A DNA stretch of 64,000 nt, from NCBI RefSeq assembly GCF_009914755.1, contig NC_060932.1, one strand, 5' to 3'. The notes beneath the pieces were generated by a model. It was not told where the DNA came from and ran no database searches. It saw nothing but the letters and a program-made list of their open reading frames with translations. The stretch's first letter is position 1. Each line of letters begins with the position of its first letter. Source of the stretch: the human T2T-CHM13v2.0 reference genome, Homo sapiens. The position numbers and the translations under genes are program-made. Positions 1 through 3,116 of this stretch are shown here, one piece after another.

Positions 1-160
1 ATGCTGAGGGCCAGCAGCCCCCAGCTGACTCTGAGGCTTGCTGTGCTGTTGCAGAGATCTGTGTTGCAACATGAGGCCCTGGAGGCGGCCAGGCTGTCTT
101 GGTAGCCAGGGCAGGTGTAAGCGCATGATTTTATAATAATCATTTGCTGACCTGGGGGAG
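1..160 (-). pseudogene. Ly6 pseudogene last coding exon (LU domain C-half plus GPI signal), open to the window edge
   Basis: Acceptor ctctgttttccag|; translation TPPGQQMIIIKSCAYTCP...SCCNTDLCNSTASLRVSWGLLALS; no stop within the window. Confidence 0.95.
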
Positions 161-308
161 CTGGAAAACAGAGGGCAGAGGGCTGTTTTCTGAGACCTGA
201 GACCTGTGAAATTCACTCCTGCCCCTCTCGACAGACAAAAGCCTGCCAGACTCTTCCTCATTGTTCTCCCACCTTACAGGGATGCAGAGCAAGAGGCAAG
301 TACAGCCC

Positions 309-757
309 CAGGGCTCAGTGTGTGACAGGGACCAGGGCTCAGTGTGTGACAAGGACCAGGGCTCAGTGTGTGACCAGGACCAGGGCTCATTGTGTGACAA
401 GGGTCAGGGTTCAGTGTGTGACCAGGAACAGGGCTCAATGTGTGACCAGGACCAGGGCTCTGTGTGTGACAGGGACCAGGGCTCAGTGTGCGACAGGGAC
501 CAGGGCTCAGTGTGTGACCAGGACCAGGGCTCGGTGTGTGACAGGGACCAGGGCTCAGTATGTGACCAGGGTCAGGGCTTAGTATGTAACCAGGACCAGG
601 GCTCAGTGTATGACAGGGACCAGGACTCAGTGTGTGACCAGGGTCAAGGCTCAGTGTGTTACCAGGACCAGGGCTTGATGTATGAACAGGGCCCAGGGCT
701 CAGTGTGTGACCAAGGTCAAGGCTCAGTGTGTGACCAGAGTCAGGCTCAGTGTATGA
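309..757. repeat. 24-bp minisatellite (CAGGGCTCAGTGTGTGACAGGGAC), about 18-19 copies, in the last intron of the Ly6 pseudogene
   Basis: Direct tandem units; explains the periodic ORFs at 261-710, 322-582 and 140-400. Confidence 0.95.
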
Positions 758-849
758 GCAGATTCCAGGTCTTACCCACTGTCCCACTTTTCTCCTTCTT
801 CCTTTCTGAGCAGCCTGTACCCGCTGTTCAGTAATTACAAGGCTTTAAA

Positions 850-1036
850 TTAAGCATTTCGTGTGTGCCAGCACTGTGGGGCATTTCACGTGGAAAATCT
901 CGTCCGCTCTAAGGACCTCAGGATGGGGGCCACCTGCCATTCTCATTTTGGAGGGAGGAGATAGAGGGCCTGGCAGTTGCAGCATTTGCCTGAGGCATTG
1001 CTTGCAAACATCAGAGTTCTGATTAGAAGCCAGTCT
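850..1036 (-). mobile_element. MIR SINE remnant
   Basis: Degenerate match to the reverse-complement MIR core (ctcattttgg...gaggagatagagg...gcatttgcctgagg...gattagaagccagtct). Confidence 0.55.
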
Positions 1037-1133
1037 CCCCAGCCCCTTTGATCTCCCCACCACTCCCTGCCCTCCTGCTGAGGCCCAGGCACACTGCCCT
1101 GCCCACCTGCCCACCCAGAGGAGAGGCACTCAC

Positions 1134-1241
1134 TGGTCCAGGTGGTCAGGCAGTAACGAGTGGTGTTTTGGCAGGATGTGGGCTGGAAACAATTCCCTCA
1201 ATTCCCTGTCACAGAGCACTCATGGCATCTCAGTGCCTGGG
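1134..1241 (-). pseudogene. Ly6 pseudogene exon encoding the LU domain N-half (LRCHEC...YC), with in-frame TGA at 1200-1198
   Basis: Acceptor ctctcccag|, donor A|gtgagt, 108 nt, 5 Cys. The tandem duplication caattccct x2 (+ strand 1190-1207) creates the stop. Confidence 0.95.
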
Positions 1242-1907
1242 CTGGGAGAGGCACAGCTGGTGGTCGGAGACCAAGCCCTGGTCCCTGCCCAGCCTCCCAC
1301 ATCACAACCTCAGGCATAGACTCTGCTTTTGGGAAAGCACCAGCTTACCAAGCCCTGCACCCTGTCCTCCACCCGCCCACCCGTGTGGACACTGGGCCCC
1401 GGAAGTGCTCCGTGGTGCACACTTAGGCTCAGATAAAGAAGTTGTCTCTGCTTTCTCCAGAGACGACCAGAAATCACCTGGGTTAGGAACCAAAGCTCTG
1501 AGCAGCCAGAGATCCAGGCTACCAGGCAACCCCCAGCACCCCTGGTACCCCTCAAAGCCCACCAGGCCAATGGGGGCAACTCTCTGCAGGACTGAGCAAA
1601 AGCAACAGCAGATCCAACGGTGCCTCTGGGTGAGTCAGGAAGACAAAGTGGGCAAGCAGCCCAGGGACTGGGAATGGGGTGGAGGGCCCAGGCTGTGGCC
1701 CTGCGCTGGCTCAGGCTCAGGCTCAGGCTGTACCTCCTGTGGGGCCTCTGGCAAGTCCTGCCCTCTGTGCCCCAGCTTCCCCTCTGAGCAGCACGGGTGC
1801 CTGACTGCAGAGGCTGGTCCAGCTAGGCCAACCCAGGCTGTCAGGGTGGCCGCCAGCATCCCCAGGGACCCAGGGGGGACCCAGAGCAAGAGTGCGCATC
1901 GGCTCAC

Positions 1908-1958
1908 CTGAACACACCAGCCTCAGAGACAGCAGCCAAGACAGGTGGATCCTCGTGG
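1908..1958 (-). pseudogene. Ly6 pseudogene signal-peptide exon (start codon mutated to ACG at 1956-1954)
   Basis: ccctagCC ACG AGG ATC CAC CTG TCT TGG CTG CTG TCT CTG AGG CTG GTG TGT TCA G|gtgagc: 16 codons plus 1 nt, leucine-rich, with a consensus donor. Confidence 0.85.
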
Positions 1959-2304
1959 CTAGGGCGGGGCAGATAGGCAGGTGGTGGCCCCATCCAGAGC
2001 TCGGGCTGTCTGGCCTGGATCAGGCCATCTGGTCTTTATGGGGCCTTCTCCAGCTGTGGCTGGGGTGGGGCAGGTGTGTCCCTCACTGTCTCCTGCCTCC
2101 ATCCCAACATGTGACATCACCCGAGGTGTGGCTGGAGCAGTAAATACTTCCACGAGCGCACCCCGCTTCTAAGCTCCCCGGCTGCCTGGGCCTGGTGCCC
2201 TGGGCCCTAGAGAGCCACTCACTGCCCCCTTCACCAGCCCCCTGCACACACGCCTCCCCACCACGGCACCAGGGGCCGGCAGTGCTGCTGTCTGCTTCTC
2301 CCTA

Positions 2305-2673
2305 GGGTGCATCACCCTCAGCTCAGCCACCATCGCAAAGGCCACAGGCCAGGTGCCAGAATGGCAGCTGTGTGCGTCTCACAGCTCTGGAGCTGGGAAG
2401 TCCAAGATCGAGGTAGCAGCAGGGCTGGTCCCTCCTGGGGCCTCTGTCCTTGGCACGGGGAAGGCATTTTCTCCCTGCATCCTCACACGGTCACCCCTGT
2501 GTGTGTCTGTGTCCTCATCTCCTCTTCTAATAAAGACACCAGTCAGGTTAGGTTAAGGCCCCTGTATAAACCACCTCTCTAAAAGCCCTGCCCCCAGACA
2601 CAGTCTCACTCGGAGGTATTGGGGGTTGGAACTTCAACATAGGAATTAAGAGGAACACAATTCTGCCCCTAAC
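2305..2673 (-). mobile_element. MaLR LTR (MLT1A/B-like)
   Basis: ctcacagctctggagctgggaagtccaagatcgagg...acttcaacatagg...cacaattctgcccctaaca, typical of an antisense MLT1. Confidence 0.8.
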
Positions 2674-2984
2674 ACAGGGAGAGGGAGAAATGGGTCATTT
2701 TCCCGTGCTCAGGCCTGGTCATGACAGACGCAATCGCTGAGAGCCCCATGGGGGCAGGTATCCTTGTTCCTAAGATGGGACCGAAACTCACACCTGGAAT
2801 CCATTCAGTCGGGAGACTGCTGGTCACATCTGGGCCCACAGGGCTCTGCTTCCATTAAACAAATAAATATTCACAATTACAAAATGCCAGAAACTTGTCC
2901 TCTCTTCCTGACTACAAGGATTCCAGGTGTGAGCTTTAGCCCCATTTTAAGGACAAGGAAACTGAAGGCCCAAGGTGGGAAGTG

Positions 2985-3116
2985 ACTGGCAGGTGGGGGC
3001 TGGCCAGGTAAGGGCTGGCCATGCGAGGGCTGGCAGGTGGGGGCTGGCTAGGTAAGGGCTGCCAGGTGAGGGCTGCAAGGAGAGGGCTACCAGGTGGGGG
3101 CTGCCAGGTGGGGCTG
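2985..3116. repeat. Degenerate ~15-bp tandem repeat (GGGCTGGCAGGTGG/GGGCTGCCAGGTGA)
   Basis: About 8 imperfect units seen directly. Confidence 0.75.

What the first reader, a model, noticed from the sequence alone, without database searches (positions are those of the whole stretch)
1..1958. Hidden spliced Ly6/uPAR three-finger gene, probably the lost primate ortholog of mouse Ly6m (intectin)
Seen in sequence: three minus-strand exons (1956-1908, 1241-1134, 160-1) with consensus GT-AG sites splice in phase 1 into (M)RIHLSWLLSLRLVCSAQA-LRCHECSVTGN[*GN]CFQPTSCQNTTRYCLTTWTTPPGQQMIIIKSCAYTCPGYQDSLAASRASCCNTDLCNSTASLRVSWGLLALS. The ORF track misses it entirely. Established: signal exon, LxCxxC exon and CCxxxxCN+GPI exon with 10 Cys is the canonical Ly6 architecture. 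Inference from memory: it matches mouse Ly6m/2010109I03Rik (recalled motifs AQALKCHEC, TPPGQQ, CAYTCP, CCNTDLCNS, VSWGLLAL), an intestinal GPI protein lying between Cyp11b2 and Ly6e that I recall being listed with no human ortholog. This would make it a unitary pseudogene; I cannot confirm whether it is already annotated.
Basis: partly seen in the sequence, partly recalled or inferred. Interest (0 to 1): 0.92.

Follow-up and report, generated by a model that had tools for sequence, protein, structure and literature searches.

The report
Dead human copy of LY6M gene
An unannotated three-exon relic of the LY6M surface-protein gene lies between CYP11B2 and LY6E on human chromosome 8, disabled by a lost start codon and a 9-base duplication that creates a stop codon, which explains why this mouse gene has no working human counterpart.

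Summary
Three minus-strand exons (1956-1908, 1241-1134, 160 to 24 bases before the window) have GT-AG borders and phase-1 introns. They join into a 342-nt frame for one Ly6/uPAR domain with a leader and a hydrophobic tail. The locus is the only human counterpart of the mammalian LY6M family. That family is named "lymphocyte antigen 6 family member M" or "6D-like" in databases, and mouse Ly6m is 2010109I03Rik. A capuchin and a murine-type LY6M protein both hit this locus best in the whole human genome. The human exons hit only LY6M proteins. In a 55-row tree the human sequence is sister to capuchin plus marmoset (99/93) inside the LY6M clade (100/99).

Two lesions disable it. ACG replaces the ATG kept by 39 of 40 orthologs. 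A perfect 9-bp tandem duplication (1190-1207) creates an in-frame TGA that 40 of 40 orthologs lack. All ten cysteines and 28 of 29 highly conserved columns survive.

One correction: intact predicted proteins exist in two New World monkeys and a bushbaby, so the loss is not primate-wide. No catarrhine protein was found. The locus is a well-supported, ordinary unitary pseudogene, absent from RefSeq and from the literature searched. The link to "intectin" rests on recall only.

The parts
2034..2040 (-). TATA-like CATAAAG about 80 nt upstream of the former start codon; a possible core promoter remnant (inference only)
   Evidence: Sequence; motif scan. No expression data were available.
2020..2028 (-). 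Upstream in-frame ATG followed at once by GCC TGA (a two-codon mini-ORF). It cannot replace the lost start codon.
   Evidence: The other upstream ATG (1993) is out of frame.
1908..1956 (-). Exon 1 coding part: signal-peptide exon of 16 codons plus 1 base, with donor GT at 1907-1906
   Evidence: It is 11/16 identical to Cebus residues 1-16 and unique in the window. The hydrophobic core is weakened: best 9-residue Kyte-Doolittle mean is 1.76 against 2.36-3.06 in 6 orthologs.
1954..1956 (-). Lesion 1: ACG where the start codon ATG should be
   Evidence: Met is present at this column in 39 of 40 orthologs and is invariant in the 18-row alignment A1.
1242..1907 (-). Intron 1 (phase 1, GT...AG)
1134..1241 (-). 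Exon 2: N-terminal half of the LU domain (LxCxxC head, first 5 cysteines), 108 nt
   Evidence: Pfam PF00087 scores 28.3 bits (cut-off 21.2) on profile positions 1-32. The Cebus protein hits it at 7e-8.
1190..1207 (-). Lesion 2: perfect 9-bp tandem duplication (2.0 copies, 100% match). It inserts three codons, the last being TGA at 1200-1198.
   Evidence: TRF; translation. The three inserted positions are gaps in 40/40, 40/40 and 39/40 orthologs. The stop lies 64 nt upstream of the last exon junction.
161..1133 (-). Intron 2 (phase 1, GT...AG), holding a minisatellite at 308-757
1..160 (-). Exon 3: C-terminal half of the LU domain (CCxxxxCN end, last 5 cysteines), small-residue linker and hydrophobic tail. 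Coding continues 21 nt beyond the window to a TAG at -24..-22.
   Evidence: Pfam PF00087 scores 27.7 bits on profile positions 38-72. The Cebus protein hits it at 1.6e-27 with 81% identity and no stop.

Best explanation
This is the human unitary (unprocessed, single-copy) pseudogene of LY6M. LY6M is a small mammalian gene for a GPI-anchored, single-LU-domain three-finger surface protein; the mouse gene is Ly6m/2010109I03Rik.

The ancestral gene made a precursor of about 110 residues from three coding exons. It had a signal peptide, a ten-cysteine LU domain and a C-terminal GPI-attachment signal.

On the lineage to humans the start codon became ACG. A 9-bp tandem duplication in exon 2 also introduced an in-frame TGA after the second cysteine. 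Either lesion alone should prevent production of the protein. Any spliced transcript would carry a premature stop 64 nt before the last exon junction and should be a target of nonsense-mediated decay (established rule; inference here).

Shown: the gene structure, the lesions, the orthology, the single-copy state and the intact orthologs in other mammals. Inferred: that the locus makes no protein, that the lesions are fixed in humans, and when the loss happened.
For: Structure: GT-AG, phase-1, three-exon frame of 342 nt with one internal stop. This matches the '3 exons, 1 LU domain' listed for mouse Ly6m.

Family:
- Both domain halves pass the PF00087 cut-off on complementary halves of the profile.
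- All 10 LU cysteines are kept, and 28 of 29 columns that are at least 90% conserved among 40 orthologs.

Orthology:
- The exon-3 query returned 20 proteins at E<=1e-3 out of 21 candidates. All 16 hits that carry a source name come from mammals, and all 20 recur in the LY6M set defined. The best is Cebus at 85% identity.
- A profile search gave 45 of 89 hits at E<=1.2e-21, then a gap to 2.2e-11 (LY6S). Two of the 45 are named 'Lymphocyte antigen 6 family member M' by UniProt.
- Cebus P0002 and murine-type P0021 were searched against the whole 3.1-Gb human genome. Both hit this locus best (1.6e-27 and 7e-8; 3.5e-16 and 2.8e-3). The next hits are at E>=0.028.
- Tree of 55 rows: the LY6M clade has 100/99 support, and human plus (Cebus, Callithrix) has 99/93.

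Gene order: human GML - CYP11B1 - CYP11B2 - this locus - LY6E (hub table); mouse Gml, Gml2, Ly6m, Ly6e.

Lesions.

Single copy: a DNA self-search gave 1 match, itself. PF00087 over the genome gave 17 matches, only these two exons in the window, and exon 2 is the only chr8 match with a stop.

Not annotated: the hub's RefSeq table has no gene at 1-1958. Loughner 2016 lists LY6M as having no human ortholog.
Against: - Only one human genome (T2T-CHM13) was examined, so fixation of the two lesions is not shown.
- No transcript data were available.
- The sequence looks young. There are only two lesions. The human lineage shows no excess of amino-acid change (8 human-lineage against 7 New-World-monkey-stem changes). 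The human end branch is short (0.076). A very recent loss, or residual use, is therefore not excluded.
- ACG can serve as a weak near-cognate start (general knowledge).
- Orthologs are computer-predicted proteins. Their function was not tested, except in mouse, and that rests on recall and citation.
- No canonical AATAAA lies within 950 nt after the stop. This fits decay but could also mean the 3' end is not understood.
Confidence: 0.9

Rival explanations
1. The locus is a pseudogene at the protein level but is still transcribed and acts as a non-coding RNA, or as a regulatory element for neighbours (CYP11B2, LY6E).
For: Splice sites, a TATA-like motif and the whole exon structure are intact. 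This reading is compatible with the main explanation rather than exclusive of it.
Against: There is no RefSeq transcript or functional element at 1-1958 in the hub table. No RNA family was matched. No expression data were seen. A premature stop 64 nt before the last junction predicts decay of a spliced transcript.
Confidence: 0.08
2. The gene still makes protein, either by ACG initiation plus TGA read-through or because the lesions are polymorphic and some people carry an intact allele.
For: 28 of 29 highly conserved columns and all 10 cysteines are kept. The human branch shows no acceleration.
Against: Two independent lesions would both have to be bypassed. No in-frame upstream ATG is usable. 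The signal-peptide core has gained an Arg and lost hydrophobicity. The literature lists no human ortholog and RefSeq annotates nothing here. No catarrhine protein appeared in three database searches (0 of 20 hits, 0 of 45 family-level hits among 89, and 0 of 22 hits).
Confidence: 0.03
3. It is a dead duplicate of another chr8 Ly6 gene (LYNX1, LY6D, LY6E, LY6S) and not the LY6M ortholog.
For: NCBI's automatic names for the orthologs are '6D-like' or 'Ly-6/neurotoxin-like protein 1'. The closest solved structure to the family profile is LYNX1 (1.1e-8).
Against: There is a gap of ten orders of magnitude between LY6M-type hits and the next paralogs. The LY6M clade has 100/99 support with human inside the primates. 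Human LYNX1 (L003, identified by PDB 2l03 at 6.9e-24) matches the Cebus LY6M protein only at E 0.028. The position matches the mouse gene order.
Confidence: 0.02

Closest known systems
Mouse Ly6m (2010109I03Rik) and its mammalian orthologs (databases: 'lymphocyte antigen 6 family member M', 'lymphocyte antigen 6D-like')
   Same: Three coding exons, one LU domain, ten cysteines, hydrophobic C-terminal tail, and a position between GML and LY6E. Identity is 88/110 to Cebus, 78/110 to Otolemur, 67/110 to rat and 62/110 to Mus pahari. Mouse LY6M is predicted to be GPI-anchored (Loughner 2016).
   Different: The human copy has ACG for ATG, a 9-bp duplication with a TGA, and an Arg in the signal-peptide core. 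No canonical poly(A) signal lies within 950 nt.
LYNX1 (PDB 2l03), PSCA, SLURP1, CD59: solved single-LU-domain proteins
   Same: Same three-finger LU domain. The family profile matches LYNX1 at 1.1e-8, PSCA at 2.6e-6, SLURP1 at 1.2e-4 and CD59 at 6e-4.
   Different: These are distant paralogs. The human LYNX1 exon matches the Cebus LY6M protein only at E 0.028. No LY6M structure is solved.
Human unitary pseudogenes with working mouse orthologs (e.g. the Gulo, Mbl1, Tssk5 entries in Table 1 of Zhang et al. 2010, passages seen)
   Same: Unprocessed, syntenic, single-copy, disabled by a few point lesions, and with an intact ortholog in rodents.
   Different: This one is not in the main-text passages of that table that I saw (0 occurrences of 'Ly6' or '2010109I03Rik'). 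It is also absent from the one supplement of Rubanov et al. 2020 that could be searched.

Membership tests
Ly6/uPAR (LU, three-finger) domain, Pfam PF00087/PF00021 | Match to the family profile | tested here: met
   Exon 2 scores PF00087 28.3 bits and exon 3 scores 27.7 bits (cut-off 21.2), on profile halves 1-32 and 38-72. PF00021 is below its cut-off for each half alone (20.7 and 18.2 against 24.8). The intact ortholog P0002 passes both (51.1 and 31.7 bits).
Ly6/uPAR (LU, three-finger) domain, Pfam PF00087/PF00021 | Ten cysteines in the canonical spacing, LxCxxC head and CCxxxxCN end | tested here: met
   All 10 family-invariant cysteine columns are kept in human. The head and end motifs are visible.
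Ly6/uPAR (LU, three-finger) domain, Pfam PF00087/PF00021 | Three-finger fold | not tested
   Structure prediction accepted no jobs. Only sequence-level similarity to solved LU proteins is available.
GPI-anchored Ly6 gene architecture | Signal-peptide exon, then two LU exons split by phase-1 introns | tested here: met
   Exons of 49, 108 and 185 nt, both introns GT-AG and phase 1. Mouse Ly6m is listed with 3 exons.
GPI-anchored Ly6 gene architecture | Working N-terminal signal peptide | tested here: not met
   The start codon is ACG. The hydrophobic core carries Arg at position 12. The best 9-residue hydropathy is 1.76 against 2.36-3.06 in 6 orthologs. This was a heuristic only; no SignalP was available.
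GPI-anchored Ly6 gene architecture | C-terminal GPI signal (small residues, spacer, hydrophobic tail) | tested here: inconclusive
   A hydrophobic tail is present (hydropathy 2.44, within the ortholog range of 2.24-3.04). No GPI predictor was available. PredGPI is positive for mouse LY6M according to Loughner 2016.
LY6M orthogroup | Reciprocal best hit | tested here: met
   Human exons hit only LY6M-type proteins. Cebus and murine-type LY6M proteins hit this locus best in the whole human genome, with the next hit at E>=0.028.
LY6M orthogroup | Placement inside the clade at the position expected from the species tree | tested here: met
   The LY6M clade has 100/99 support and human plus two New World monkeys has 99/93. 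The outgroup was 13 rows picked from the 44 weaker hits. No human LY6D or LY6E proteins were in the tree.
LY6M orthogroup | Conserved gene order | tested here: met
   In human the locus lies between GML/CYP11B1/CYP11B2 and LY6E (hub table). The mouse order is Gml, Gml2, Ly6m, Ly6e. The mouse position relative to Cyp11b2 is recalled only.
Unitary pseudogene | Disabling lesions in an otherwise recognisable, intron-bearing gene | tested here: met
   ATG>ACG and a 9-bp duplication with TGA; introns retained.
Unitary pseudogene | No functional copy elsewhere in the same genome | tested here: met
Unitary pseudogene | Lesions fixed in the species | not testable with these tools
   Only T2T-CHM13 is held.

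The most novel reading that the evidence does not exclude
The loss is recent (hominoid- or human-specific) and not an old catarrhine event. Only two lesions exist and every other highly conserved position is intact. If so, intact or single-lesion alleles may still segregate in apes or even in people. Humans would then differ from New World monkeys, lemurs and rodents in a gut-epithelial surface protein that, by recall, mouse work uses as a marker of epithelial turnover under the name intectin.
Probability: 0.12. Interest if true: 0.6.

Novelty: new member of a known kind. Interest (0 to 1): 0.35.

Why it matters
It turns a bare statement in the Ly6 literature ('LY6M: no human ortholog') into a defined event. 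The gene is still there, single-copy and syntenic, killed by two identifiable mutations, while New World monkeys and a bushbaby keep an intact reading frame.

It adds an unannotated unitary pseudogene to the human 8q24 Ly6 cluster.

If Ly6m is indeed 'intectin' (recall, not confirmed here), there is a practical caution. That transcript is used as a read-out of intestinal epithelial turnover in many mouse diet and microbiota studies (listing; passages). It would have no functional human equivalent.

The near-intact state makes the locus a convenient case for dating a primate gene loss.

Tried and rejected
Readings considered and rejected:
- Chance ORFs: rejected.
- Other genes on either strand: four long ORFs in 1027-2553 have no Pfam match at E<=0.01. 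No Rfam family occurs in 1-3000.
- Alternative start: the in-frame upstream ATG at 2028 is followed by a stop two codons later, and the ATG at 1993 is out of frame.
- Paralog relic: rejected.

Steps that led nowhere:
- Exon 3 alone against PDB gave only weak three-finger matches (best E 0.021).
- Dating the loss by relative rate: 8 against 7 changes is uninformative. No primate DNA was available for dN/dS.
- Structure prediction of the family was not accepted twice, so no fold search was done.
- Kitazawa et al. 2004 is not held.
- Paper reading closed, so the supplements of Zhang et al. 2010 and the text of later listings were not read.

Prior description was sought and not found:
- Five paper searches.
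- Passages of the LY6S paper: 0 occurrences of Ly6m or pseudogene.
- Koludarov et al. 2023: its Fig. 2a marks human pseudogenes, but figures are not held. The three supplement files that could be searched held no 'Ly6m', and the exon-3 motif occurred only in an alligator LYPD2 row. One zip and four PDFs could not be read, so that paper may already show this relic.
- The main-text passages of Zhang 2010 and Rubanov 2020 hold no Ly6 entry.

Full report
**Observation**

The minus strand of window 1-2400 holds three segments with canonical borders.
- Exon 1 is 1956-1908, followed by GTGAGC.
- Exon 2 is 1241-1134, preceded by CTCTCCCAG and followed by GTGAGT.
- Exon 3 starts at 160 after TTTTCCAG and runs past the window start.

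The first codon is ACG, not ATG, and exon 2 holds one in-frame TGA.

The window's own genome is held. Searches show that exon 3 continues for eight more codons to a TAG at window -24..-22. Joined by coordinates in a script, the exons are 49 + 108 + 185 = 342 nt. The frame is open except for that one TGA, and both introns are in phase 1.

**Is it more than chance?**

A profile built from 18 orthologs (A1) was run over all 2967 stop-to-stop pieces of at least 12 aa in the six frames of the 64-kb window.
- Exon 3 scored 2.1e-29.
- The two halves of exon 2 scored 5e-8 and 1.9e-3, at colinear profile positions.
- The next best piece scored 0.52.

Exon 1 is too short for that test. Its 16 codons match residues 1-16 of the capuchin protein at 11 positions. 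The best of the other 127,903 sixteen-codon windows on both strands reaches 7.

**What it is**

- Each LU-domain exon passes the Pfam cut-off for PF00087 on complementary halves of the model: 28.3 bits on positions 1-32 and 27.7 bits on positions 38-72, against a cut-off of 21.2.
- Exon 3 as a query against 5.8 billion proteins returned 20 proteins at E<=1e-3 out of 21 candidates. The 16 that carry a source name are mammalian proteins of 106-139 aa, called 'lymphocyte antigen 6D(-like)' or generic LU-domain names. The other four are unnamed. All 20 recur in the LY6M set of the profile search. The best is Cebus imitator at 85% identity.
- The profile search gave 89 hits. Forty-five lie at E<=1.2e-21, then there is a gap to 2.2e-11 (rodent LY6S).
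- UniProt names two of the 45 (Jaculus, Nannospalax) 'Lymphocyte antigen 6 family member M'. The rat entry XP_002729867.2 and a Mus pahari entry are also among them.
- Loughner et al. 2016 (passages) define mouse Ly6m as 2010109I03Rik with 3 exons and 1 LU domain. They predict it to be GPI-anchored, place it in the order Gml, Gml2, Ly6m, Ly6e, and list 'Human ortholog? No'.
- The hub's table puts the present locus between GML/CYP11B1/CYP11B2 and LY6E, the same relative place.

**Orthology tests**

The capuchin protein searched against the whole 3.1-Gb human genome hits exon 3 (1.6e-27, 81% identity, no stop) and exon 2 (7e-8, one TGA). The next match is E 0.028. I identified that locus as LYNX1 through PDB 2l03.

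P0021 is an unnamed record that is sister to Mus pahari in the tree. It gives the same result: 3.5e-16 and 2.8e-3, then 0.054.

DNA of 1100-2100 is single-copy in the genome.

The tree had 55 rows.
- It used the human conceptual product with X at the stop, 41 of the 45 family hits and 13 named paralog rows.
- Four family hits were left out: two unnamed intron-retaining models, a 77-aa fragment and a second Sciurus entry.
- The 13 paralog rows were chosen from the 44 weaker hits. The remaining weaker hits, mostly fish uPAR-like proteins and unnamed records, were left out.
- The LY6M clade has 100/99 support. Human is sister to Cebus plus Callithrix at 99/93.

**The lesions**

1. Start codon. 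ACG lies at 1956-1954. Met is present in 39 of 40 orthologs at that column and is invariant in A1. The only in-frame upstream ATG (2028) is followed by GCC TGA, and the ATG at 1993 is out of frame.
2. Duplication. Tandem Repeats Finder reports a 9-bp unit, 2.0 copies, 100% match, at 1190-1207. It adds three codons, the third being TGA at 1200-1198. These columns are gaps in 40, 40 and 39 of 40 orthologs. The stop lies 64 nt before the exon 2-3 junction, so a spliced transcript should undergo nonsense-mediated decay (established rule; inference here).

Softer signs of decay:
- An Arg in the signal-peptide core lowers the best 9-residue hydropathy to 1.76, against 2.36-3.06 in six orthologs.
- There is no AATAAA within 950 nt of the stop.

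Everything else is intact. All ten cysteines are kept. Twenty-eight of the 29 columns that are at least 90% conserved are kept. Identity is 88/110 to Cebus, 78/110 to Otolemur and 67/110 to rat.

**Scope of the loss**

Cebus, Callithrix and Otolemur have full-length predicted proteins with all cysteines.

No catarrhine protein appeared in any of three searches: 0 of 20 hits, 0 of 45 family-level hits among 89, and 0 of 22 hits. This fits a catarrhine-wide loss. It is weak evidence, however, because absence of a predicted protein is not absence of a gene.

The human lineage shows no excess of amino-acid change: 8 changes against 7 on the New World monkey stem, polarised by Otolemur. The human end branch is 0.076. 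The age of the loss therefore stays open. No primate DNA could be fetched with these tools.

**Mechanism**

The ancestral product was a secreted-pathway precursor of about 110 residues. Its signal peptide is cleaved and its single three-finger LU domain is locked by five disulfides. Its C-terminal hydrophobic tail is exchanged for a GPI anchor. This is family knowledge; PredGPI is positive for mouse LY6M.

By my recall, mouse Ly6m is the 'intectin' of Kitazawa et al. 2004. Citing papers describe intectin as a GPI protein of the small-intestinal villus tip that accelerates epithelial apoptosis (passages). No call confirmed that the two names mean one gene.

In humans the locus most likely makes no protein.

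**Prior knowledge**

- RefSeq RS_2025_08 has nothing at 1-1958 (hub table).
- Five literature searches found no description of a human LY6M pseudogene.
- The LY6S paper mentions neither Ly6m nor pseudogenes.
- Zhang 2010 and Rubanov 2020 hold no Ly6 entry in the text I could see.
- Koludarov et al. 2023 BLASTed exons across the human cluster and mark pseudogenes in a figure I could not see. Their readable supplements lack it.
- GENCODE could not be checked.
- Paper reading closed, so the supplements of Zhang 2010 were not searched.

**Verdict**

This is a real and cleanly defined, but ordinary, unitary pseudogene. It is a new member of a known kind, of moderate interest to Ly6 and primate gene-loss specialists.

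Noticed in passing
window 308-757 (intron 2 of the relic): Minisatellite with a 24-bp unit x18.8 copies (or a 72-bp unit x6.2, 86% matches). It creates long spurious ORFs on both strands.
   Followed up: partly
protein P0043 (Prolemur simus, UniProt-named): This LY6M-family entry has 3 of the 10 LU cysteines replaced (two by Arg, one by Ser) and a divergent C-terminus. It may be an independent decay in a lemur or an assembly/model artefact.
   Followed up: partly
family hits: The 45 LY6M-type hits cover rodents, lagomorphs, four primates, elephant, two xenarthrans, a hedgehog and six marsupials. There is no carnivore, bat, ungulate or whale, which hints at further losses in Laurasiatheria. Only the 8000 best candidates were scored, so this is a lead and not a count.
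   Followed up: no
L003 (G000:C8:143917521-143920661) and L004 (G000:C8:143906976-143910110): These are the next-best human matches to the capuchin LY6M protein. L003 is LYNX1 (PDB 2l03, 6.9e-24). L004 holds two LU-type exons that I recognise from memory as SLURP2 (not tested).
   Followed up: partly
window 1958-64000: A genome-wide PF00087 scan (17 matches, a lower bound) found no LU-domain exon in the window other than exons 2 and 3 of this relic. The next one downstream is at window 77019-77387, inside LY6E.
   Followed up: yes
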